Of a stretch of DNA of 64,000 nucleotides, positions 19,383-35,900 are shown one piece after another (positions within the stretch are counted from its first letter, which is position 1; every line of letters begins with the position of its first letter). This stretch comes from the human T2T-CHM13v2.0 reference genome, Homo sapiens. The translations under genes and the position numbers were made by a program. Where the stretch lies: assembly GCF_009914755.1 (NCBI RefSeq), contig NC_060941.1. One strand, given 5' to 3'. The notes below the pieces were generated by a model. The model did no database searches, was not told where the DNA came from, and was given only the letters and a program-made list of their open reading frames with translations.

Positions 19383-19710
<328 letters not shown>

Positions 19711-19779
19711 TAATCCCACATGGATTACAACCACGACCAATGATATGAGAAACCATCATTTTATTTCGACTATAAGAAC
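19711..19779 (-). tRNA. mt-tRNA-Glu NUMT copy
   Basis: Position between ND6 and CYTB; sequence similar to mt-tRNA-Glu. Confidence 0.85.
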
Positions 19780-19783
19780 ACCA

Positions 19784-20922
19784 ATGACCCCAACATGTAA
19801 AACTAATCCACTAGTAAAAATAATCAACCACTCACTTATCGATCTCCCCGCCCCATCCAACATCTCCATATGATGGAACTTCAGCTTGCTTCTTGGTGCC
19901 TGCTTAACCCTTCAAATTATTACAGGACTATTCCTAGCTATACGCTACTCACCAGACGCCTCAACCGCCTTCTCCTCAGTCGTCCACATCACTCGAGATG
20001 TAAACTATGGCTGAATCATCCGCTACCTCCATGCCAATGGCGCCTCAATATTTTTCATCTGCCTCTTCCTACATATTGGCCGAGGCCTGTACTATGGCTT
20101 ATTTCTCTACCTAGAAACCTGAAACATTGGCATCATTCTCCTACTCACAACCATAGCAACAGCCTTCATAGGCTAGGTACTCCCATGAGGCCAGATATCC
20201 TTGAGGGGCCACGGTAATCACAAATCTACTGTCCGCCATTCCTTATGTCGGAACAGACCTGGTGCAGTGGGTTTGAGGTGGTTATTCAGTAGACACACCC
20301 ACTCTCACACGATTCTTCACCTTCCACTTTATCCTACCTTTCATTATTACAGCCCTAGTAGTCTTACACCTACTATTTCTCCATGAGACAGCATCAAATA
20401 ACCCCTCAGGAATCTCCTCCCACTCCAACAAAATTACCTTCCACCCCTACTACATGACCAAAGATATCCTAGGCCTATTTCTCCTCCTTCTCACCCTAAT
20501 AACACTAGTACTGTTTTCACCCGACCTCCTAACTGATCCAGATAACTACACCCTAGCCAACCGCCTGAATACTCCACCCCATATTAAACCCGAATGGTAT
20601 TTTCTATCTGCCTACGCAATCTTATGATCCATCCCCAACAAACTAGGAGGCGTACTGGCCCTCCTACTATCAATCCTCATCCTAGCAGCAATTCCCACAC
20701 TTCACATGTCCAAACAACAAAGCATAATATTCTGTCCACTAAACCAATTCCTATATTGACTCCTAATTACAGATCTCCTTATCCTCACATGGGTTGGAGG
20801 ACAACCAGCAAGCTACCCCTTCATCACCTTCGGACAAACAGCATTCGTAGTTTACTTTGCTACAATTCTAGCCCTGATACCGCTTGCCTCCCTACTCGAA
20901 AACAAAATACTCAAATGGACCT
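19784..20922 (+). pseudogene. MT-CYB: Cytochrome b NUMT pseudogene
   Basis: ATGACCCCA...; PEW motif (CCCGAATGG); premature TAG at 20174-20176 and a 2-bp deletion at ~20200 (1139 vs 1141 nt). Confidence 0.97.
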
Positions 20923-20988
20923 GCCCTTGTAGTATAAACCAATATATTGGTCTTGTAAACCAGAAATGGAGACTCTCTCCCAAGGACA
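20923..20988 (+). tRNA. mt-tRNA-Thr NUMT copy
   Basis: GCCCTTGTAGTATA...CTTGTAA anticodon loop...CAAGGACA. Confidence 0.88.
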
Positions 20989-20990
20989 AC

Positions 20991-21058
20991 TCAGAGAAAA
21001 AGTACTTGACTTCACCATCAGCACCCAAAGCTAAGATTCTAATTTAAACTACTCTCTG
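20991..21058 (-). tRNA. mt-tRNA-Pro NUMT copy
   Basis: TCAGAGAAAAAG...CACCCAAAGCT...CTCTG. Confidence 0.88.
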
Positions 21059-22244
21059 TATTCTCATGAGGGAGCCATTTTGGGTACAACCCAAGTATCG
21101 ACCCACCCCACCATAATTTTATATATATCGTGAATTTCTGCTAGCCACCATGAATATTATATAGTACTATAATTGCTTAACTGTACATAGTACATATCAA
21201 ACGAAACTCAACAACAACTCCTCCCCACGACGCTTACAAGCAAGGACTAGAATACCTTAACTAACGGTAACACATTAAACCCACCCTCCAAAAGAAACTT
21301 CTCAACCACAAGCGTACCAAAAAACACTATATATCCTTGAGTACATAGTACATCTAATCGCTCATGGTAGATAGCACATTCCAGTTAAACAAGTCCTCGT
21401 CAATACGGATATCCCCCTCAGATAGTGGTCCGTTGTTCACCATCCTCTGTGAAATCAATATCCTGCAGAAGAGTGCTACTCTTCTTGATCCAGGTCCATA
21501 ATACTTGGGGGTAGCTATAATGAACTGTATCCGGCATCTTGTTCTTACCTCACAGCCATAAAGTCAAGACCAACCACACGTTCCCCTTAAATAAGACATC
21601 ACGATGGATCACGGGTCTATTACCCTATTAATCAGTCACGGGAGCTCTCCATGCATTTGGTATTTTAATCTGGGGGGTGTGCACGCGATAGCATTGTGAA
21701 ACGCTGGCCCCAGAGCACCCTATGTCGCAGTGTCTGTCTTTGATTCCTGCCCCATCCCATTATTGATCACACCTACATTCAATATCCCAGGCGAGCATAC
21801 CTATCACAAGGTGTTAATTAATTAATGCTTGTAGGACATAACAATCAGTAAACACACCCACGGCCGCTTTTCACATCAACTCTACAATAAAATTCTGCAA
21901 ATCCCCTTCCCCCATCTTTGGCCTCACCAACCCAGGAAAAGACATCTTTGCCAAACCCCAAAAACAAAAAGCCTTAATCCAACTCAACCAGAGCCCAAAT
22001 TTTTATCTTTAGGCTGTACGCATTTTTAACAGTCACCCCTCAACTAACACGTCTTTTTCCCTCTTAGCCTCACTTCACAGACTCTACAAATTTAGTTATC
22101 CCTTTTTCAGCCATCCCATTCAACGCATGCCCGACCACTACTAAACCAACACCCTAAACTAACCCAACCCCAAAGGCAAGGCTTTCCCCCCTACCCATTG
22201 CTTGTATGCCCATCCCCTAGCCTTGCTTACACTGTGCAATCACA
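21059..22244 (+). promoter_or_regulatory. Complete mitochondrial control region (D-loop) copy with TAS, central domain, CSB1-3, LSP/HSP regions
   Basis: TACATAGTACAT; CCCCTTAAATAAGACATCACGATGGATCAC; CSB1 TTAATTAATGCTTGTAGGACATAA (~21819-21842); degenerate CSB2 (~21898-21916); CSB3 TGCCAAACCCCAAAAAC (~21949-21965). Confidence 0.95.
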
Positions 22245-22315
22245 GTCTATGTAGCTTAATGACCCAAAGCAAGACACTGAAAATATCTAGATGGGCCTAC
22301 ACTGCCCCATAGACA
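22245..22315 (+). tRNA. mt-tRNA-Phe NUMT copy
   Basis: GTCTATGTAGCTTAA...CTGAAAA...CCCCATAGACA. Confidence 0.88.
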
Positions 22316-23235
22316 AATAGGTTTGGTCCTAGCCTTTCTATTAACTCTTAGTAAGATTACACAAGCAAGCATCGCCACCCTGGTGAAATAACCCTCTAAA
22401 TCACTACAATCAAAAGGAGTAAGTATCAAGCACGCATTAGTGCAGCTCAAAACACTTTGCCTAGCCACACCCCCACGGGAGACAGCAGTGATAAACCTTT
22501 AGCAATAAACGAAAGTTTAACTGAGCTATACTAACTTTAGGGTTGGTTAATTTCATGCCAGCCACCACGGTCATACGATGAACCCAAGCTAATAGAGACT
22601 GGCGTAAAGAATGTTTTACATTATCCCTCAATAAAGCTAAATTTCACCTAAGTTGTAGAAAACCCTAGTTGATATAAAACAAACTACGAAAGTGGCTTTA
22701 ATATTTCTGAATACACAATAGCGAAGATTCAAACTGGGATTAGATACCCCACTATGCTCAGCCCTAAACTTCAACAGTTAAATCAACAAAACTGCTCGCC
22801 AGAACACTAGGAGCAACAGCTTAAAACTCAAAGGACCTGGCGGTGCTTCACATCCCTCTAGAGGAGCCTGTTCTATAATCGATAAACCCCAATTCACCTC
22901 ACCACCTCTTGCTCAACCCATATACCGCCATCTTCAGCAAACCCTGACAAAGGCCACAAAGTAAGCACAAGTATCTACATAAAAATGTTAGGTCAAGGTG
23001 TAGCCTATGAGGTGGCAAGAAATGGGCTACATTTTCTACCCCAGAAAATTCTACAATAACCCTTATGAAACCTGAGGGTCCAAGGAGGATTTAGTAGTAA
23101 ATTAAGAACAGAGTGCTTAATTGAATAGGGCCATAAAGCACGCACACACCACCCATCACCCTCCTCAAGTATATTTCAAGGACTATCTAACTAAAACCCC
23201 TATGCATTTATATAGAGGAGATAAGTTGGATAAAC
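22316..23235 (+). rRNA. MT-RNR1: 12S rRNA NUMT copy (pseudogene) with 3' terminal deletion
   Basis: AAACTGGGATTAGATACCCCACTATG, GGCTACATTTTCTAC; the terminal helix is missing at ~23226. Confidence 0.95.
23007..23075 (+). CDS. MOTS-c-like small ORF, 22 aa (MRWQEMGYIFYPRKFYNNPYET); expression unknown
   Basis: Manual translation from ATG 23007 to TGA 23073-23075; first 14 residues identical to MOTS-c (MRWQEMGYIFYPRKLR). Confidence 0.35.
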   Translation: MRWQEMGYIFYPRKFYNNPYET

Positions 23236-23304
23236 CAAGGTGTAGCTTAACATAAAGCACCCTGCTTACACCTGGGAGATTTCAATTTAATTTGACCACC
23301 CTGA
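23236..23304 (+). tRNA. mt-tRNA-Val NUMT copy
   Basis: CAAGGTGTAGCTTAAC...CTTACAC anticodon loop. Confidence 0.88.
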
Positions 23305-24267
23305 GCTAATTCTAGCCCCAAACCCAACTAATTCTACTACCAAATAACCTCAACTAAAACATTTACCCAAATAAAGTATAGGCGATAGAAATGATATCTC
23401 GGCACAATAGACATAATACCGCGATGGAAAGATGAAAAAACATAACCAAGCATAAAGTAGCAAGGACAAACCCCTATACCTTCTGCATAATGAATTAACT
23501 AGAAATAACTTTACAAAGAGAACCAAAGCCAAGACCCCCGAAACCAGACGAGCTACCTAAGAACAGCTGAAAGAGCACACCCATCTATGTAGCAAAATAG
23601 TGGGAAGATTCATAGGTAGAGGTGACAAGCCTACCGAGCCTGGTGATAGCTGGTTGTCCAAGATAGAATCTTAGTTCAACTTTAAATTTATCTACAGAAC
23701 CAGCTAATGCCTTTGTAAATTTAACTGTTAGTCTAAAGAGGGACAGCTCTTTAGACACTAGGAAAAAACCTTGTAGAGAGAGTAAAAAATATAACTTCCA
23801 AAGTTGGCCTAGAAGAAGCGATCAATTAAGAAGGCGTTCAAGCTCAACACCCAACCACCCAAAAAATTCCAAACACATAACTGAACTCCTCACATCACAT
23901 TGGACCAATCTATCATTTCATAGAAGAAATAATGTTAGTATAAGTGACATGCAAACATTCTCCTCCGCATAAGCCTACATCAGACCAAAATACTTCACTG
24001 ACAATTAACAGCCCAATATCTATAAATAATCAATGAAACCATTATTACCCACACTGTTAACCCAACACAGGCATGCTTACAAGGAAAGGTTAAAAAAAGT
24101 AAAAGGAACTCAGCGAATCTTACCCCTCCTGTTTATCAAAAACATCACCTCTAGCATTACCAGTACTAGAGGCACCACCTGCCCAGTGACATATGTTTAA
24201 TGGCTGCGGTACCCTAACCGTGTAAAGGTAGCATAATCACTTGTTCCTTAAATAGGGACTTGTCTGA

Positions 24268-24342
24268 ATGGCTCCACGAGGGTTCAGCTGTCTCTTACTT
24301 TCAACCAGTGAAATTGACCTGCCCGTGAAGAGGCGGACATAA
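24268..24342 (+). CDS. MTRNR2L1: Humanin-like peptide ORF, 24 aa MAPRGFSCLLLSTSEIDLPVKRRT
   Basis: ATG GCT CCA CGA GGG...AGG CGG ACA TAA. Differs from humanin (L12S, A24T) and matches my recollection of humanin-like 1. Confidence 0.8.
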   Translation: MAPRGFSCLLLSTSEIDLPVKRRT

Positions 24343-24624
24343 TACAACAAGACGAGAAGACCCTAAGGAGCTTTAATTTATGAATGCAAACAAGACCAAA
24401 TAGGCCCGCAGGCCCTAAACTACCAGACCTGCGTTAAACATTTCGGTTGGGGCGACCTCGGAGTATAACCTAACCTCCGAGCAACATATGCTGAGACTAT
24501 ACCAGTCAAGGCGAATATCCACATACAATTGACCCAATAATTTGACCAACGGAACAAGTTACCCTAGTGATAACAGTACAATCCTATTCTAGGGTCCACA
24601 TCGACAGTAGCATTAACGACCTCG

Positions 24625-24687
24625 ATGTTGGATCAGGACATCCCAATGGTGCAGCCGCTATTAAAGGTTCGTTTGTTCAACGATTAG
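24625..24687 (+). CDS. SHLP6-identical small ORF, 20 aa MLDQDIPMVQPLLKVRLFND; expression unknown
   Basis: Manual translation from ATG 24625 to TAG 24685-24687. Confidence 0.35.
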   Translation: MLDQDIPMVQPLLKVRLFND

Positions 24688-24864
24688 AGTCCTATGTGAT
24701 CTGAGTTCAGACCGGAGTAATCCAGGTTGGTTTCTATCTATTCTACATTTCTTCCAGTACGAAAGGATAAGAGAAATGGGGCCCACTTCATAAAGTGCCC
24801 CTGCCCCATAGATGATATTATCTCAGCATTTTACTGTACCCACACCCACCCAAGAACAGGGTTT

Positions 24865-24939
24865 GTTAAGATGGCAGACCCCAGCAATTGCATAAAATTT
24901 AAAACTTTACAACCAGAGGTTCAACCCCTCTTCTTAACA
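24865..24939 (+). tRNA. mt-tRNA-Leu(UUR) NUMT copy
   Basis: GTTAAGATGGCAGA...TTCTTAACA; MTERF1 site altered (TGGCAGACCCCAG). Confidence 0.88.
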
Positions 24940-24941
24940 AC

Positions 24942-25897
<956 letters not shown>

Positions 25898-26104
25898 AGA
25901 AATATGTCTGACAAAAGAGTGACTTTGATAGAGTAAATAATAGAGGTTTGAATCCTCTTATTTCTAGGACCATAGGAATTGAACCTATCCCTGAGAATCC
26001 AAAATTCTCCGTGCCACGTGTCACACCCTATCCTGGAGTAAGGTCAGCTAAATAAGCTATCAGGCCCATACCCAGAAAATGTTGGTTATATCCTTCCCGT
26101 ACTA
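25898..26104 (+). tRNA. IQM tRNA cluster copies: Ile 25898-25966(+), Gln 25964-26035(-), Met 26037-26104(+)
   Basis: AGAAATATGTCTGA...; TAGGAC...GAATCCAAAATTCT; AGTAAGGTCAGCTAAATAAGC...CCCATACC. Confidence 0.9.
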
Positions 26105-27140
26105 ATCAATCCACTGGCCCAACCTGTCATCTACTCCACCGTTTTCACAGGTACACTCATTGCAACATTAAGCTTGCACTGATTTTTTACCTGGACAGGA
26201 TTGAAAATAAACATACTAGCTTTTATCCCAATTTTAATTAAAAAAATAAACCCCCGCTCTACAGAAACTGCTATCAAATACTTTCTCACATAAGCAACCA
26301 CATCTATAATCCTCATAATAGCTATCCTCTCCAACAATGTACTCTCCGGACAATGAACCACAACCAACACCACCAACAAATACTCATCATTAATAATCAC
26401 AACAGCCCTAGTAATAAAACTAGGAATAGCCCCTTTCCGTTTCTGAGTCCCAGAAGTCACTCAAGGAACCCCTCTAATATCCAGCCTACTTCCCCTCACA
26501 TGACAAAAATTAGCCCCTATTTCAATTATATATCAAATCTCCCCATTAATAAACATTCTCCTTACCCTTTCAATCTTATCCATTATAGTGGGTAGCTGGG
26601 GTGGACTGAACCAAACCCAACTATGTAAAATCCTAGCATACTCCTCAATCACCCATATAGGCTGAATAATAGCAGTACTAGCATACAACCCAAGTATCAC
26701 CATTTTCAACCTAATCATCTATATCATTCTAACAACCACCACATTCCTGGTACTCAACTTGAACTCTAGCACTACAACCCTACTACTGTGCCGCACTTGA
26801 AATAAACTAACCTGACTAATACCCCTAATCCCATCTACCCTACTATCACTAGGAGGCCTTCCCCCACTAACTGGCTTTCTACCCAAATGATTTATCATTG
26901 AAGAATTCACAAAAAATAACAACCTCATTATCCCCACTACCATAGCCATTATTACTCTCTTTAACCTATATTTTTACATACGCTTAATCTACTCTGCTTC
27001 AATTACACTATTCCCCATATCCAACAACGTAAAAATAAAATGACAATTTGAAAATACAAAATCCACACCACTCTTCCCCACACTCACTGTCCTTACCACC
27101 CTCCTCCTACCAATCTCTCCACTTACACTACCCACCTCAT
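26105..27140 (+). pseudogene. MT-ND2: ND2 NUMT pseudogene
   Basis: ATC AAT CCA CTG GCC CAA...; premature TAA at 26291-26293; ~6-bp deletion near 26555. Confidence 0.95.
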
Positions 27141-27512
27141 ATAAATTTATGTTAAACGCAGACTAAGAGCCTTCAAAGCCCTTAGTAAGTTAATAATACT
27201 TAATTTCTGCAGCACCCAAGGACTGCAAAACCCTACTTTGCATCTACTGAACGCAAATCAGCCACTTTAATTAAGCTAAGCCCTTGCTAGATCAATGGGA
27301 CTTAAACCCACAAAAATTTGGTTAACAGCTAAATACCTTAATCAACTGGCTTCAATCTACTTCTCCCGCCGCAAGGGAAAAAAGGCGGGAGAAGCCCAGG
27401 CAGGATTGAAGCTGCTTCTTTGAATTTGCAATTCAACATGAAAGGCACCTCAGGGCTGGTAAAAAGAGAGTTTTTAGATTTACAGTCTAATGCTTTGCTC
27501 AGCCATCTTACC
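27141..27512. tRNA. WANCY cluster copies: Trp 27141-27209(+), Ala 27217-27285(-), Asn 27287-27359(-), Cys 27392-27457(-), Tyr 27458-27512(-, internally deleted)
   Basis: Canonical order and sequence between ND2 and COX1. Confidence 0.9.
27360..27394. other. Light-strand replication origin (OL) hairpin copy
   Basis: Perfect 11-bp stem CTTCTCCCGCC / GGCGGGAGAAG with an A-rich loop. Confidence 0.95.
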
Positions 27513-27517
27513 CACTA

Positions 27518-29058
<1,541 letters not shown>

Positions 29059-29198
29059 CAAAAAAGGAAGGAATTGAACCTCCTAAGGCTGGTTTCAAGC
29101 CAGCCTCATAACCCCTATGACTTTTTCAACAAGATATTAGGAAAACTATTTCATAACTTCGTCAAAGTTAAGTTACAGGTTAAACCCCGTATATCTTA
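29059..29198. tRNA. mt-tRNA-Ser(UCN) 29059-29127(-) and tRNA-Asp 29131-29198(+) copies
   Basis: GGTTTCAAGCC; AAGATATTAG...TCGTCAAAGTT. Confidence 0.88.
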
Positions 29199-29878
29199 AT
29201 GGCACACGCAGCCCAGCTAGGTCTTCAAGACGCCACATCCCCTATCATAGAAGAGCTAATCGCCTTCCATGATCACGCCCTCATAATCATCTTTCTTATC
29301 AGCTTTCTAGTTTTATACGCCCTCTTCCTAACAATTACAACAAAACTAACACTAACATCACAGACGCCCAAGAAATAGAAACTGTTTGAATGATTCTACC
29401 TGCCATTATCCTAGTCCTAATTGCCCTTCCATCCCTACGTATCCTGTACGTAACAGATGAAATCAATGACCCTTCTTTTACCATTAAATCAATCGGACAC
29501 CAATGATACTGAACCTATGAATACACCAATTATGGAGGATTAATTTTCAACTCTTATATACTTCCACCACTATTCTTAGACCCAAGTGACCTTCGACTTC
29601 TTAAAGTTGATAATCGAGTAGTCCTTCCAATTGAAGCCCCTGTTCATATAATAATTACATCACAAGACGTCCTACACTCATGAACTGTCCCCACATTAGG
29701 CTTAAAAACAGATGTAATCCCCGGACGCCTAAACCAAACCACATTCACCGCCATACGACCAGGAGTATACTACGGTCAATGCTCAGAAATCTGCGGAGCT
29801 GACCATAGCTTCATAACCATCATTCTAGAACTAATCCCGCTAAAAATCTTTGCAATAGGACCTGTATCCACTTTATAG
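29199..29878 (+). pseudogene. MT-CO2: COX2 NUMT pseudogene
   Basis: ATGGCACACGCAGCC...; GGTCAATGCTCAGAAATCTGCGGA (GQCSEICG); 4-bp deletion at ~29350. Confidence 0.96.
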
Positions 29879-29905
29879 GCTACCGCCCACTCTCTTAATA
29901 AGGTT

Positions 29906-29975
29906 CACTGTAGAGCTGACCCAGCATTAACCTTTTAAGTTAAAGACTAAGAGAATCGCTATCTCTTTACAGTGA
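29906..29975 (+). tRNA. mt-tRNA-Lys NUMT copy
   Basis: CACTGTAGAGCT...CCTTTTAAG...TTTACAGTGA. Confidence 0.88.
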
Positions 29976-29976
29976 C

Positions 29977-30183
29977 ATGCCTCAACTAGACACCACCATA
30001 TGACCCACTATCGTCGCATCAATACTCCTCACATTATTACTCATCATTCAACTAAAAGTACTAAACACAAACTACCATCTGCCTACCTCACTAAAAATTA
30101 TTAACATGCAAAACCACAATAATCCTTTAGAGTCAAAATGAACGAAAATCTGTTTACTTCATTCATTGCCCCCACAATTCTAG
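29977..30183 (+). pseudogene. MT-ATP8: ATP8 NUMT copy (open in mitochondrial code; TGA at codon 9 stops it in the nuclear code)
   Basis: ATG CCT CAA CTA GAC ACC ACC ATA TGA...; 207 nt. Confidence 0.93.
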
Positions 30184-30817
30184 GCCTTCCAGCTGCAGTG
30201 CCAATCGTTCTATTTCTCCCCATGCTGATTCCAGCTTCCAAACACCTTATCAACAACCGATTAATTACCACTCAACAGTGACTAATTCAACTCACCCTAA
30301 AACAAATAATAACAATAAATAACATTAAAGGACGAACCTGATCCCTCATGCTAATATCCCTAATTATCTTCATTGCTACAACCAATCTCCTCGGGCTCTT
30401 GCCCCACTCATTCACACCAACTACCCAACTGTCATAAACCTGGCCATGGCAATCCCCCTATGAGCAGGTGCAGTAATTACAGGCTTCCGCTTTAAAACCA
30501 AAAATACCTTAGCCCATCTCTTGCCACAAGGCACACCCTCACCCCTCATTCCCATACTAATTATTATCCAAACCATCAGCCTATTTATCCAACCAATAGC
30601 CCTAGCCATGCCCCTAACTGCTAATATTATGGCAGGCCATCTGCTCATACACTTAATCAGAAGCGCCACACTAGCGCTATCAACTATCAACCTCCCCACA
30701 ACCTCAATCATCTTCACAATTTTGATTTTACTGACGATTCTCGAAATCGCTGTCGCCCTGATTCTAGCCTATGTTTTCACACTCCTAGTGAGCCTCTACC
30801 TACATGACAATACATAA
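30138..30817 (+). pseudogene. MT-ATP6: ATP6 NUMT pseudogene
   Basis: ATGAACGAAAATCTG...YLHDNT*; 1-bp deletion at ~30434; essential Arg159 motif VRLTAN changed to MPLTAN. Confidence 0.96.
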
Positions 30818-31600
30818 TGGCTCACCAATCACATGCCTATCACATAGTAAAACCCAGCCCATGACCTCTAACAGGGGCCCTTTCAGCCCTCCTAATGACA
30901 TCCGGCCTAGCTATATGATTCCACTTTTACTCTACCACCCTACTAACACTAGGCCTACTGACCAATGCACTAACCATATACCAGTGATGATGTGATGTTG
31001 TACGAGAAGGTACATACCAAGACCACCACACAGTACCCGTCCAAAAAGTCCTTCGGTATGGAATAATTTTATTCATCATCTCAGAAGTCTTTTTCTTCGC
31101 TGGATTCTTCTGAGCATTCTACCACTCCAGCCTAGCCCCCACCCCTCAACTAGGAGGACACTGACCCCCAACAGGCATCACTCCACTCAACCCCCTAGAA
31201 GTCCCACTCCTAAACACATCTGTACTACTCGCATCGGGAGTTTCAATTACTTGAGCTCACCATAGCCTAATAGAGAACAATTGTAATCAAGCAATTCAAG
31301 CACTACTTATCACAATCTTACTAGGCATCTACTTCACCCTCCTACAAGTTTCAGAATACTTTGAAGCCCCCTTTACTATCGCCGATGGTATGTATGGTTC
31401 AACATGTTTTGTAGCTACGGGCTTCCACGGGCTCCCCGTCATCATTGGTTCAACATTCCTTACTGTTTGCCTTATCCGCCAACTATTATATCATTTTACA
31501 TCCAAGTACCACTTCGGCTTCGAAGCCGCTGCTTGATACTGACACTTTGTAGATGTAGTTTGACTATTCCTATATGTCTCTATCTACTGGTGAGGATCTT
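30817..31600 (+). pseudogene. MT-CO3: COX3 NUMT pseudogene
   Basis: ATGGCTCACCAATCACATGCC...TGATACTGACACTTTGTAGATGTA (WYWHFVDV); 784 nt. Confidence 0.96.
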
Positions 31601-31668
31601 ACTCTTTTAGTATAGACAGTACCACTGACTTCCAATTAACTAGTTTCGATAACACTCGAAAAAGAGTA
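31601..31668 (+). tRNA. mt-tRNA-Gly NUMT copy
   Basis: ACTCTTTTAGTATA...CTTCCAA...AAAGAGTA. Confidence 0.88.
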
Positions 31669-32013
31669 ATAAACCTGGCACTAGCCCTAACAGTCAACAC
31701 CCTCCTGGCCCCATTACTAATAACCATCACATTTTGATTACCACAACTTAATATCTACATAGGAAAGTCTAACCCTTATGAATGGGGTTTGACCCACTAT
31801 CCTCTGCTCGCATTCCCTTCTCCATAAAATTCTTCTTGATTGCTATCACCTTTTTATTATCTGACCTAGAAATTGCCCTATTACTACCCCTACCGTGAGC
31901 CCTCCAAACAACCAATCTACCACTAACAGTTGTATCATCACTCACATTAGTTACTATCTTAATCCTAAGTTTGACTTATGAACTATCCCAGAAAAGGTTA
32001 GACTGAGTCAAAT
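31669..32013 (+). pseudogene. MT-ND3: ND3 NUMT pseudogene
   Basis: ATAAACCTGGCACTA...GACCTAGAAATTGCCCTA (DLEIAL); 1-bp deletion in the YECGFDP region ~31785. Confidence 0.94.
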
Positions 32014-32081
32014 TGGTAAGTAGTTTAACAGACAAAAACAATGATTTTGACTTGTTAGATTATGATAGTCATACTTACAAA
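32014..32081 (+). tRNA. mt-tRNA-Arg NUMT copy (degenerate)
   Basis: TGGTAAGTAGTTTAA...; anticodon TCG decayed to TTG. Confidence 0.8.
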
Positions 32082-32378
32082 ATGCCCCTCATCTACATAA
32101 ACATTACATTAGCATTTACTACCTCACTGTTAGGAATACTAATCTATCGCTCACACCTAACGTCCTCCCTACTATGCCTAGAGGGGATAATATTATCTCT
32201 ATTCATCGTAAACACCCTCATAACCCTAAACACACACTCTCCCTTAATTAACATCATACCTATCACCATATTAGTCTTTGCTGCCTGTGAAGCAGCAGTG
32301 GGCCTCACCCTACTAGTCTCAATTTCTAACAGATACGGTCTAGATTATGTACATAACTTAAACTTACTCCAATGTTAA
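32082..32378 (+). pseudogene. MT-ND4L: ND4L NUMT copy, full-length 98-codon ORF open in the standard code
   Basis: [12 protein letters not shown]...ACEAAVGL...HNLNLLQC* with no stop or frameshift. Confidence 0.95.
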
Positions 32379-32721
32379 AATTAATTATCCCTACAATCAT
32401 ACTACTTCCAACAACATGACTCTCTAAAAACCATATAATTTGAATTAACATAACCACTCACAGCCTAATTAACAGCTCTATCCCACTGTTATTTTTCAAC
32501 CAAGCCAACGACAATCTATTTAGCTACTCTCTTTCTCCTCTGACCCCCTGATGACACCCCTTCTAATACTAACAGCCTGACTTCTACCTCTTATGATCAT
32601 AGCGAGTCAATGCCACTTATCTAACAAGTGCCCCTTACGGAAAAAAACTTTACCTGTCTGTACTAATCACCCTTCAAATCTCCCTGATCATAACATTCAT
32701 GGCCACAGAACTAATCATATT
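32372..32721 (+). pseudogene. MT-ND4: ND4 NUMT pseudogene, 5' ~350 bp, truncated
   Basis: ATGTTAAAATTAATTATCCC...GCCACAGAACTAATCATATT, then the junction. Confidence 0.94.
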
Positions 32722-32972
32722 GATTATTAGTGGTGTAGTTGGGTGTGTTATTATTCTGAATTATGGGGGAGGTTATATGGGTTTAATAGTTTTTTAAATT
32801 TATCTAGGAGTATGATGGTTGTTTTTGGATATACTACAGCAATGGCTATTGAGGAGTATCCTGAGACACGGGGGTCAGGAATTGAAGTCTTGGTGAGTGT
32901 ATTAGCGGGATTATCAATGGAAGTGGGGTTGGTCTTATGAGTGAAGGAGTATGATGGGGTGGTGGTAGTGGT
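32718..32972 (+). pseudogene. MT-ND6: Inverted internal ND6 fragment (copy B)
   Basis: Translates [31 protein letters not shown]; reverse complement of 19401-19620 plus ~35 bp more. Confidence 0.96.
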
Positions 32973-35900
32973 CACATTCTTTGCTGAACAAACGGTACCT
33001 CAAATAACTTCATACAAATACTACTGGGAAACTTAGCATTTTATTAAAATGTTTAAATTTCCTATTTTATCAAATCTAACATATTAGTAATAATATATTC
33101 CTTTTATTCAACTTTAAAGTTCTATTCAACAATAGCAATTTATAATTTTATATTATTAAATGTTATTCATACAGTTTAATAATTTTATAATTTAGCATTA
33201 ATGAAACCAGCACAGACAATATAATGTTCATGATATTTTATGTATATGTTTAACATACACATACATAATTCAACATTAATGGCTTCCTTAATTACCATTA
33301 ATATTATAATTTTATATTATCATTTAAGTTTGCCCTTCTATTTTAATATTAGATGTCTTAGCATCCATCAGTTCTATCAAGCTCTTCTCACTGGTTCTTC
33401 TTTGAATTCCAGACATGGCCACAATCTTCTCTTCTAAAATTCTAAAATCTGAGGGCTCTCGCTGGCTGGGTGCTGCTGGAAGAACTGTAACTTGGTTGTT
33501 ATCTCAACGGTATTTTATTTTAAATGTTTCAATTAAAAGAAGTTTTTAAAAATGTGGAAATCCCTGAGAATATTCACTTTTTTAAATACAATGGGAATGT
33601 ATTTAATGTATGGCTGAAGTCTGTTTCTCCTCGTTTGATCCAGGGGTGCTTCTGAGAACTCTTCCAAGTGCCAGATCCTGGGCCGCTGGCAGCTTGGCCC
33701 CAGTGGCAGTTCAGTTACCCCATCACGGCTGGGGCACCAGGGGAGCCCCACAGGTGGGCGAAAATTACCGTAGATTAAAACCTAGGCAGTTTAACACAAG
33801 CAGCCAGCACCAACATCACGGTACTTGATCTTCCAACTTCCTGCACTACCAATTCTATGTCTCATCACATTCTCCTCTGGCCTCTCGGCCCCCAGCACAC
33901 AGGCTTCAGCCTCTGTTTCTGCTGAAGCCCTTTCTTCATACACTCTAGAACATAGAACATAGGACAGAGAGAGAGACTTTAGTAGGAATACTGACATTTA
34001 AAAACTTATCAGAGATATGAAAAATCAACTACATGAAGTACGGCGGTATATTAAGGCTTTGTGAATAAAAACACAGTAAAGGGTGGGTGTGTAAAGCTAT
34101 TTTCCAACCATCCTTCCAAACCAAGGCTTTTGAGGGCACAAGTCCTCCCAGCAGGTGGCAGGATGGGCCCAGCAGTGTCTTCAGCCCATTGCTGTCATGA
34201 GTTAGGAAAGGCTGAATTCTATTTTACATACAAAAGAAAACATTTATTTAATTAAAGATTCAAGCTACAATACAGTTCTTCATAAAACACTACAATATTT
34301 TGATTATCAATGTTTTTCTGTTGCTTTTTCTCATGAAACATGATTTGCCTTTGTGAAATCTGAAGTTTCCTATTCTATCAATGAGAAGGTGTATCAAATG
34401 GATAGTCCATCCAGTGTATCCGACATCAATTACAAAATGCCTCCCTTTTTCTTAATTTTGCCTTTTTTCCCTTTGTCATTCTTGAGTCTCTGTTAGTGCA
34501 CTGAAGAAGTGAAGACATGTACTTAAAGAAATGCCAACATCTGCTGAAGATCAGATTCCGTATTTTGTATTTTAGTTGATGTAATGATGACTTTAGTTAT
34601 AATGACTTTAGTTGATGTAATGATTCTAATGAACAAGAAAGATTTTGTTTCCCATTTTAAAAGATATCATTAAGTCATGCAGAATATTTTTCAATTTATT
34701 ATGGGTGTGTATGCAAGGGGTTGCCATTTCACCTGCTTCAGTCTTCCCTCTAAACCAATCCTAAGACACACCTAGGCTGAATTCATATCACATGAAAATT
34801 CATCACATGATGTCCTACTAGGTCAAAAAGTATAAAAACTGACATTACGGAGAAAGACTTCATTGAAACCAGGACAGAAAGACACTAAGGCACACAGTGC
34901 TCAGAGCGGCATGCTGACAAGATCTCTGGTGGGAGGCCATTGCCTGGACACCTGCTGGGTTTTGTCCTGGACACCATTCATTCACTTGAGCATGTTTGGT
35001 ACCCAGGGTATTTTTCAATAATAGGCAAAATAGAATGAGTTCTTCAAACCTTGTGGATTTTATACTGAAAACTTCCAGAGATATATCTTAGGTAATTATA
35101 AGACCAAGCACAACAACAACAACAAAATCCTAACTTGAATCCATCAGTTGCAGATTTCATGGTTGACTACATCAAGAGGAAGTTGCAAGCTCTAAAAGCT
35201 GGAAGACCAGTCAATATCAGGAACTCCTCAGAAGTGAAGGAAAAGTGGTTTAAATTTGTTTAACAAAACCATGTTTTCAAACTTACTTTAATTTATGCAT
35301 GAGGGCCATTAAATTTGTTCTTTTTAAAAAGGAAACTTCTTAATTGGAACTAAATCATTCATTATTCACTGTGATACGGGTTATATACCCTTAGGTTCCA
35401 TGTGATTATTCACATGTTCAGCTGACAGAAAGGAGAAAAAGCTACTCTAATGACTTAGCTTCGCTTTGACTCACTGGTTTTTATCTCATTTTAACTTCCA
35501 ATCTCGGTTACAGAGAGTGTTAAAGCTGGAAGAAATAACATTTTGGTAGATGGTAAAGGATAAGTACGAGTCATTTCAAGTTGTTGAAGCTTTCATTAAA
35601 CAAAGCAAGCTATTTGAAATCTTAAAGCTATTTAAATAAAGGGCTAAGACTTTTCCGTTTTATTTACTTAAAAGCTTAAAAGATACTGTTGAAAATTTAA
35701 CAGTTAATCTATTGTAGGGTGTGGTTAGACACTTATTTTGACAGTGCTCACTGAAAATTCAATTATACCCCCGGAGTCAAACTTGCCAGTCATCAAAATG
35801 TCTAACGATCTGAGTGTTCACGGGGTAATAACAAACCCCATACTAAACAGTTTGCTAGAAATCTGTCCTATAACATCTAAACGGAACAATTGGGTGGTTG

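What the first reader, a model, noticed from the sequence alone, without database searches (positions are those of the whole stretch)
23007..23075. MOTS-c paralogue with intact N-terminal core and a new C-terminal tail
Seen: MRWQEMGYIFYPRK-FYNNPYET*. The first 14 aa equal MOTS-c (MRWQEMGYIFYPRKLR), including the YIFY hydrophobic core. Two extra bases after AGAAAA shift the frame, replacing the basic LR end with an 8-aa polar/acidic tail. Inference: if translated, it would cross-react with N-terminal MOTS-c antibodies and could differ in charge-dependent properties. The Kozak context is weak (C at -3).
Basis: partly seen in the sequence, partly recalled or inferred. Interest (0 to 1): 0.72.

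Follow-up and report, generated by a model that had tools for sequence, protein, structure and literature searches.

The report
Old nuclear copy of MOTS-c frame
The MOTS-c-like reading frame is really there, but it is a leftover inside an old, decaying nuclear copy of mitochondrial DNA, and its odd tail is the ancestral monkey-type reading, not a new invention.

Summary
The ORF exists exactly as described: window 23007-23075 (+) reads MRWQEMGYIFYPRKFYNNPYET*, and its first 14 residues equal published MOTS-c. It lies in the 12S rRNA pseudogene of a large nuclear mitochondrial insertion (NUMT) on chr17.

Primate mtDNA rows from Gruschus 2023 show the two "extra" bases are the ancestral catarrhine state. 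By my eye count, 16 of 16 hominoid rows have a 2-base spacer, and 0 of 86 Old World monkey rows do (61 have 4 bases, 25 have 3). Three macaque rows carry the same TTCT and read rKFYENPYE. Hominoid mtDNA lost two bases, which created the LR* end.

The window copy branches before two younger ape-stage copies (100/100 support). It has decayed at the background rate: 3 private changes in the ORF against 2.75 expected. CpG is depleted and there is a private 32-base deletion.

An intact N-terminal core is common: 7 of 43 nuclear copies keep it.

I found no evidence of translation. The start context is weak, a better-context out-of-frame ATG lies 22 bases upstream, and the ORF is outside the MTRNR2L1 span.

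Verdict: an ordinary pseudogene relic of minor evolutionary interest.

The parts
23007..23075 (+). 22-codon ORF plus stop, MRWQEMGYIFYPRKFYNNPYET*. This is the MOTS-c-homologous frame of the 12S pseudogene.
23049..23056 (+). Base 23055 is a private G>A change at a former CpG (ACGA>ACAA) and turns D into N.
23071..23075 (+). End of the ORF, with two private changes. 23071 T>C changes I to T. 23074 A>G changes TAA to TGA, so the stop stays at the ancestral position.
   Evidence: alignments
22985..23059 (+). Overlapping out-of-frame 24-codon ORF. Its ATG lies 22 bases upstream of the MOTS-c-like ATG and has A at -3. A scanning ribosome would meet it first.
22316..23235 (+). 12S rRNA (MT-RNR1) pseudogene of the NUMT. 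Bounds are approximate, taken between the two flanking tRNA-like matches. It holds 14 CpG with observed/expected 0.38.
   Evidence: Rfam SSU_rRNA_bacteria match at 22311-23287, 145 bits
23225..23226 (+). Site of a private 32-base deletion. It removes the 3'-terminal part of 12S that all 7 compared copies keep.
22245..22315 (+). tRNA-like pseudogene in the position that tRNA-Phe holds in mtDNA. The name comes from recalled gene order.
   Evidence: Rfam tRNA, 41 bits; ARAGORN did not report it
23236..23304 (+). tRNA-like pseudogene in the position that tRNA-Val holds in mtDNA. The name comes from recalled gene order.
   Evidence: Rfam tRNA, 38.5 bits; ARAGORN did not report it
23621..24869 (+). 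MTRNR2L1 (the 16S-derived part), the nearest annotated unit. Its span starts 546 bases downstream of the ORF's stop.
   Evidence: hub gene table in the task; Rfam LSU match at 23425-24758
19401..32979 (.). Extent of the NUMT, judged from the annotated MT pseudogenes (ND6P35 through ND6P34).
   Evidence: hub gene table in the task; mtDNA_ssA control-region match at 21059-21163

Best explanation
The ORF is an untranslated relic inside the 12S rRNA pseudogene of an old NUMT. The insertion most likely happened in the stem of catarrhines or of hominoids, before living apes diverged. At that time the mitochondrial 12S sequence, read in the MOTS-c frame, gave about 22 codons: MRWQEMGYIFY-x-RK followed by an FY(D/E)NPYE-type tail, with a stop at the same place as in the window. 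The nuclear genome then froze that state, because it changes far more slowly than mtDNA. Later the hominoid mtDNA lineage lost two bases after AGAAAA, which brought TAA/TAG into frame and created the 16-residue ...RKLR* form known as human MOTS-c. The first 11 residues match because that stretch of 12S is well conserved in old and young copies alike. The match at P12 falls on a hypervariable position: gorilla and orangutan mtDNA have F there. Shown here: the ORF, its NUMT setting, the distribution of spacer lengths, the branching order among nuclear copies, and neutral-rate decay. Inferred: the timing, and the absence of a peptide product.
For: 1. Setting. Rfam finds SSU rRNA at 22311-23287 flanked by tRNA-like hits, LSU rRNA at 23425-24758 and a control-region element at 21059-21163, in mitochondrial gene order.
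2. Polarity. In sheet S8 of the Gruschus 2023 supplement (counted by eye), 16 of 16 hominoid mtDNA rows have a 2-base spacer between AGAAAA and ACGA. Of 86 cercopithecoid rows, 0 have 2 bases, 61 have 4 and 25 have 3. The platyrrhine rows I checked have 3 to 6. The M assamensis, M radiata and 'M leucogenys' rows carry the window's TTCT, and the authors translate them as rKFYENPYE. Older nuclear copies carry the 4-base TCTC.
3. Order. The window copy is sister to two ape-stage copies, L002 and L003, with SH-aLRT 98 on 476 bases and 100/100 on 2.1 kb. L002 and L003 have the 2-base form and read M(R/S)WQEMGYIFYFRKLR*. A branch of 0.067 leads to them.
4. No constraint. There are 19 window-private changes in 476 bases, and 3 fall in the 69-base ORF against 2.75 expected. 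Two change residues and one changes the stop codon from TAA to TGA.
5. Decay. CpG observed/expected is 0.38, against 0.70 in L003. A private 32-base deletion sits at the 12S 3' end.
6. Commonness. 7 of 43 nuclear copies keep ATG plus MRWQEMGYIFY.
7. Poor translation prospects. The start has C at -3 and A at +4, an out-of-frame ATG with A at -3 lies 22 bases upstream, and the ORF lies outside the annotated MTRNR2L1 span (hub table).
Against: The ORF is intact, and nothing here measures RNA or peptide, so translation is not excluded. The neighbouring MTRNR2L1 is reported as transcribed in several tissues and diseases, though the same review warns that reads can be mis-assigned among near-identical loci. 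Indels recur in this rRNA loop. Tarsier mtDNA rows also show a 2-base spacer. One older nuclear copy, L032, reached the same 22-codon frame although it groups with older copies in the 476-base tree, where only 47% of its columns were filled. So spacer length alone is a homoplasy-prone character. The held assembly has 24 contigs and no mitochondrial contig, and no ape or monkey nuclear genomes were available. The branching order therefore rests on nuclear copies only, and the comparison with living mtDNAs rests on 78-base rows. The age estimate uses substitution rates that I recalled.
Confidence: 0.9

Rival explanations
1. The ORF is a working nuclear MOTS-c-like micropeptide gene. [quoted passage not shown]
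For: The ATG-to-stop ORF is intact. The first 14 residues equal MOTS-c. MTRNR2L1, 546 bases downstream, has reported transcript signals. Gruschus 2023 notes R13-K14 as a possible dibasic cleavage site, after which the tail might matter little.
Against: Private changes fall in the ORF at the background rate, and two of the three change residues. The start context is weak and a better-context out-of-frame ATG lies 22 bases upstream. The ORF is not inside any annotated transcript (hub table). The surrounding pseudogene is CpG-depleted and carries a private 32-base deletion. Six other nuclear copies also keep the N-terminal core (7 of 43 including the window). Reviews state that MOTS-c is not of nuclear origin and that no NUMT-derived variants have been identified. 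I recall that the 2015 discovery paper reported loss of the signal in cells without mtDNA, but that paper is not held. The peptide strings were found in 0 papers of the searchable library.
Confidence: 0.04
2. One reading: the source mtDNA had the human-type short form, and two bases were inserted in the nuclear copy after integration, creating a new tail.
For: Relative to the human mtDNA row the window is two bases longer. Indels recur in this loop: tarsier rows are also short, and L032 has its own one-base difference from its relatives.
Against: The window's TTCT and its flanks match living macaque mtDNA rows. 0 of 86 cercopithecoid rows have the short form, while 16 of 16 hominoid rows do (eye count). 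Older nuclear copies also have 4 bases. The window branches off before the long mitochondrial branch that leads to the short-form copies. This reading would need a deletion followed by a re-insertion of macaque-like bases at the same spot.
Confidence: 0.04

Closest known systems
Human MOTS-c (16-residue ORF in mitochondrial MT-RNR1)
   Same: It is the homologous stretch of 12S rRNA in the same reading frame. The first 14 residues are identical, and by eye the first 42 bases are identical to the H sapiens row.
   Different: The window copy is nuclear, not mitochondrial. It has a 4-base spacer instead of a 2-base spacer, so it runs 22 codons and ends FYNNPYET* instead of LR*. There is no evidence of expression.
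MOTS-c-frame reading of Old World monkey mtDNA (for example the M assamensis, M radiata and S concolor rows of Gruschus 2023)
   Same: Same spacer length, same frame after RK, and nearly the same tail. The macaque rows read rKFYENPYE and S concolor reads PrKAYDSSYE, against the window's PRKFYNNPYE.
   Different: Most cercopithecine rows have a stop at codon 4 of the long frame, shown as x in MrRxKMGYIF. The window keeps the hominid-like MRWQE start.
Other nuclear copies of the same 12S segment in this assembly (L002-L043)
   Same: All are the same kind of object. 7 of 43, including the window, keep ATG plus MRWQEMGYIFY. L032 (C9:5.097 Mb) has the same 22-codon frame, MRWQEMGHIFYPRKSHDNLYEI*.
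   Different: L003 (C11:10.59 Mb) reads MRWQEMGYIFYFRKLR*. That equals the gorilla mtDNA reading and is one residue from human MOTS-c, so it is closer to MOTS-c than the window copy is. Most older copies read ...FY(T/V)QKISRQPL*, 20 codons.
MTRNR2L humanin-like loci (NUMT-borne 16S ORFs, including MTRNR2L1 in this same NUMT)
   Same: Each is a short ORF of a mitochondrial-derived peptide carried into the nucleus inside a NUMT. MTRNR2L1 lies 546 bases downstream in the same insertion.
   Different: The MTRNR2L loci have names, annotated spans and reported transcripts. The 12S ORF has none of these, and endogenous peptide evidence is lacking even for the MTRNR2L loci.

Membership tests
MOTS-c (mitochondrial-derived peptide) | Encoded within the mitochondrial 12S rRNA gene MT-RNR1 | tested here: not met
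   The window is nuclear, at chr17 of the assembly (hub note; one search places it at G000:C17:23188001-23252000). The 12S copy is a decayed pseudogene.
MOTS-c (mitochondrial-derived peptide) | 16-residue sequence MRWQEMGYIFYPRKLR followed by a stop | tested here: not met
   Residues 1-14 are identical. Residues 15-16 and the stop are replaced by FYNNPYET*.
MOTS-c (mitochondrial-derived peptide) | Detectable peptide or transcript product | not testable with these tools
   No expression or proteomics data are on hand. The peptide strings were found in 0 papers.
NUMT-borne MT-RNR1 pseudogene | Homology to small-subunit rRNA, flanked by elements in mitochondrial gene order | tested here: met
   Rfam finds SSU at 22311-23287, tRNA-like hits on both sides, LSU at 23425-24758, tRNA-Leu at 24864-24941 and the control-region element mtDNA_ssA at 21059-21163. 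The hub table lists MT pseudogenes in order.
NUMT-borne MT-RNR1 pseudogene | Signs of neutral decay after nuclear insertion | tested here: met
   CpG observed/expected is 0.38 against 0.70 in the young copy L003. There is a private 32-base deletion. There are 19 private changes in 476 bases, spread evenly over ORF and flanks.
Nuclear genes for mitochondrial-derived-peptide-like products (MTRNR2L type) | ORF lies inside an annotated or reported transcript | tested here: not met
   The ORF ends at 23075 and the MTRNR2L1 span starts at 23621 (hub table). No row of the table covers 20916-23620.
Nuclear genes for mitochondrial-derived-peptide-like products (MTRNR2L type) | Evidence of purifying selection on the ORF | tested here: not met
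   3 private changes were observed against 2.75 expected, and 2 of them change residues. With only 69 bases this test has little power.

The most novel reading that the evidence does not exclude
The chr17 copy, and possibly the closer chr11 copy L003, is occasionally transcribed and translated. Human cells would then make MOTS-c-like peptides independently of mtDNA. These would share the N-terminal epitope and would contaminate MOTS-c immunoassays, a field in which mass spectrometry reportedly failed to find the circulating peptide despite ELISA signals (Knoop 2019, as cited). Separately, and much more likely (about 0.8): this copy is a dated fossil showing that the 16-residue LR* form of MOTS-c arose only in stem hominoids through a two-base loss.
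Probability: 0.04. Interest if true: 0.6.

Novelty: already known. Interest (0 to 1): 0.15.

Why it matters
As a gene candidate it matters little, because it is a pseudogene relic.

Two side points have some value. First, the fossil copy together with the primate mtDNA rows shows that the C-terminal LR* of human MOTS-c is a hominoid novelty created by a two-base loss. The older reading ran eight residues further. This fits the published view that only the middle of MOTS-c is conserved, and it bears on which form of the peptide is biologically relevant.

[quoted passage not shown] This assembly nevertheless holds at least 43 nuclear copies of the segment, several with open MOTS-c-like frames and one a single residue from MOTS-c. 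Anyone designing primers, probes, antibodies or read-mapping for MOTS-c should take these copies into account.

Tried and rejected
- Own-genome search for a mitochondrial reference: the held assembly has 24 contigs and no mitochondrial contig. I used nuclear copies and the published primate rows instead.
- The first own-genome search did not complete. The same request was repeated and answered.
- The discovery paper (Lee 2015, PMC4350682) and three related papers (PMC6185997, PMC5116416, PMC8224472) are not held. What I say about their NUMT check and their mtDNA-less cells is recalled, or taken second-hand from reviews.
- Literature search for MOTS-c in mtDNA-less cells (passages): nothing direct. 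One review mentions decreased MOTS-c in a cybrid/Rho0 setting.
- ARAGORN did not report the two tRNA-like pseudogenes flanking 12S. Rfam did.
- A special-conservation reading of the N-terminal block was rejected. The block is no more conserved than a fifth of comparable windows.
- Protein database searches, folds and complex prediction were not run. A 22-residue rRNA-derived ORF gives them nothing to work on, and the question was settled at the DNA level.
- I did not put the supplement's mtDNA rows into scripts. The spacer counts are by eye from the printed rows and could be off by a row or two.
- The PDF supplement of Gruschus 2023 could not be read.

Full report
**Observation**

Window 23007-23075 on the + strand reads ATG...TGA and translates under the standard code to MRWQEMGYIFYPRKFYNNPYET*. 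Published MOTS-c is MRWQEMGYIFYPRKLR (review text; H sapiens row of the Gruschus 2023 supplement). The first 14 residues are therefore identical. By eye, the first 42 bases equal the H sapiens mtDNA row in sheet S8 of that supplement. After AGAAAA the window has TTCT and then ACAA, where the human row has CT and then ACGA. The start context is weak, with C at -3 and A at +4.

**Setting**

- Rfam places a small-subunit rRNA match at 22311-23287 (145 bits).
- It is flanked by tRNA-like matches at 22245-22315 and 23236-23304.
- A large-subunit rRNA match follows at 23425-24758, and a tRNA-Leu at 24864-24941.
- A mitochondrial control-region element lies upstream at 21059-21163.

With the hub's gene table (MT-CYB, MT-RNR2-like, ND1, ND2, CO1 and so on, in order), this is a long nuclear insertion of mitochondrial DNA (NUMT). 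The ORF lies in its 12S rRNA pseudogene. No row of the table covers the 12S part. The nearest unit, MTRNR2L1, begins 546 bases after the ORF's stop.

**Which state is ancestral**

The held assembly has 24 contigs and no mitochondrial contig. I therefore used two other sources.

*Nuclear copies.* Two searches of the window's own genome and one fetch gave 43 nuclear copies of the segment, counting the window.
- Two young copies, L002 (C5:81.1 Mb) and L003 (C11:10.59 Mb), have the short human-type form. They read MSWQEMGYIFYFRKLR* and MRWQEMGYIFYFRKLR*.
- Older copies have a 4-base spacer, mostly TCTC. Most also have one more base before AGAAAA and read ...FY(T/V)QKISRQPL*.

*Living primate mtDNAs.* The spreadsheet supplement of Gruschus et al. 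2023 (PMC10465549) prints 78-base rows of this very segment. Counting the rows by eye:
- 16 of 16 hominoid rows have a 2-base spacer between AGAAAA and ACGA.
- Of 86 Old World monkey rows, 0 have 2 bases, 61 have 4 and 25 have 3.
- The New World monkey rows I checked have 3 to 6.
- The M assamensis, M radiata and 'M leucogenys' rows carry the same TTCT as the window. The authors' own translations of them read rKFYENPYE.

The window's tail, FYNNPYET, is therefore the old catarrhine reading. It is altered by private changes at 23055 (a CpG G>A, giving D/E>N) and at 23071 (I>T). The stop is at the ancestral position, changed from TAA to TGA (23074). The human LR* ending is the derived state, made by a two-base loss shared by all sampled apes.

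A caveat: tarsier rows also have a 2-base spacer. Copy L032 (C9:5.097 Mb) reaches the same 22-codon frame, MRWQEMGHIFYPRKSHDNLYEI*, although it groups with older copies. Length changes recur in this loop.

**Branching order and age**

- On 476 bases and 43 copies, the window is sister to L002 plus L003 with SH-aLRT 98.
- On 2.1 kb and 8 copies, support is 100/100. The window's terminal branch is 0.059, a branch of 0.067 leads to L002/L003, and their own terminal branches are 0.013-0.020.
- L003's segment is almost the gorilla row.

The window copy therefore left the mitochondrial lineage well before the great-ape stage and before the two-base loss. Using recalled nuclear rates of about 1-2 x 10^-9 per site per year, the terminal branch suggests roughly 30-60 million years. 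This is an inference and is not calibrated here. It fits a stem-catarrhine or stem-hominoid insertion.

**Is the intact N-terminus special?**

No.
- 7 of 43 nuclear copies keep ATG plus MRWQEMGYIFY.
- Using 24 representative copies, the first 11 codons have a mean minor-base fraction of 0.062, against 0.086 for the region. 21% of all 33-base windows are at least as conserved.
- The window carries 19 private differences in 476 bases. Three fall in the 69-base ORF (2.75 expected) and none in its first 42 bases (1.68 expected; Poisson P about 0.19 by my calculation).
- P12 (CCC) matches human and chimpanzee. Gorilla and orangutan have TTC, and gibbons and monkeys vary widely. That match sits on a hypervariable position.

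**Decay**

- The 12S pseudogene has 14 CpG with observed/expected 0.38. The young copy L003 has 33 CpG with 0.70.
- A private 32-base deletion removes the 3'-terminal part of 12S between 23225 and 23226. All 7 compared copies keep that part.

**Translation prospects**

- An out-of-frame ATG at 22985, with A at -3, opens a 24-codon ORF that overlaps the MOTS-c-like start.
- Five ATGs lie upstream within the 12S part, and four of them have a purine at -3.
- MTRNR2L1 next door has reported transcript signals. The same review stresses that reads are mis-assigned among near-identical loci and that endogenous humanin-like peptides have not been confirmed.
- Reviews say MOTS-c is not of nuclear origin and that no NUMT-derived variants are known.
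- I recall that the discovery paper compared NUMT readings and found the signal lost in cells without mtDNA. That paper is not held, so this point is recalled only.
- The peptide strings appear in 0 papers of the searchable library. The roughly 1.7 million PubMed Central articles that are readable only by id were not searched.

Nothing here measures RNA or peptide, so translation is unlikely but not excluded.

**Comparison with known things**

The object works like, and is, a NUMT-borne rRNA pseudogene. It is not a member of the MOTS-c family as defined, because it is not mitochondrially encoded and is not the 16-residue sequence. Its closest relatives in sequence are:
- the MOTS-c-frame readings of macaque and colobine mtDNAs, for the tail;
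- human MOTS-c, for the first 14 residues;
- its sister nuclear copies.

L003 is a closer nuclear look-alike of MOTS-c than the window copy, at one residue's distance.

**Verdict**

The ORF is real, but it is an ordinary pseudogene relic whose 'new' tail is the ancestral one. Interest is low. The modest take-home is evolutionary: the LR* end of human MOTS-c is a hominoid novelty. There is also a practical point. This genome holds many nuclear copies with MOTS-c-like frames, which sits awkwardly with the review statement that none have been identified.

Noticed in passing
L003 (G000:C11:10592171-10595792); ORF region near C11:10593915-10594011, minus strand: This young nuclear copy carries an open 16-codon frame, MRWQEMGYIFYFRKLR*. 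It is identical to the gorilla mtDNA reading and one residue (P12F) from human MOTS-c, so it is a closer nuclear look-alike than the finding. L002 (C5:81.1 Mb) reads MSWQEMGYIFYFRKLR*.
   Followed up: partly
L032 (G000:C9:5096900-5097650): Another nuclear copy has the same 22-codon frame and the same stop position, MRWQEMGHIFYPRKSHDNLYEI*. In the 476-base tree it groups with older copies, with only 47% of its columns filled. Its frame may have arisen by an independent one-base loss.
   Followed up: partly
L007-L025 (19 loci on C1, C2, C3, C4, C9, C13, C14, C15, C20, C21, C22, C24): A family of 19 near-identical copies of a roughly 525-base 12S fragment, equivalent to window 22650-23175. They sit in what look by coordinate like pericentromeric and acrocentric regions, which points to one old NUMT fragment spread by segmental duplication. 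All share a one-base loss in the GGGCTAC stretch that breaks the YIFY core.
   Followed up: partly
window 23225-23226: A private 32-base deletion removes the 3'-terminal part of the 12S copy just before the tRNA-Val-like element. L002, L003, L004, L005, L026, L028 and L029 all keep that part.
   Followed up: yes
window 22985-23059 (+): A 24-codon out-of-frame ORF, MLGQGVAYEVARNGLHFLPQKILQ*, starts at an ATG. L003 has ACG at the aligned position, while L002 also has ATG.
   Followed up: partly
literature (PMC12788896): [quoted passage not shown] At the DNA level this assembly holds at least 43 copies of the segment, several with open MOTS-c-like frames.
   Followed up: partly
Gruschus 2023 supplement, sheets S7/S8: Most cercopithecine mtDNA rows have a stop at codon 4 of the long MOTS-c frame (MrRxKMGYIF...). 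In those monkeys only the internal Met-6 start could give a peptide.
   Followed up: no
window 22245-22315 and 23236-23304: The two tRNA-like pseudogenes flanking the 12S copy are found by Rfam (41 and 38.5 bits) but not by ARAGORN. They are not in the hub's gene table.
   Followed up: no
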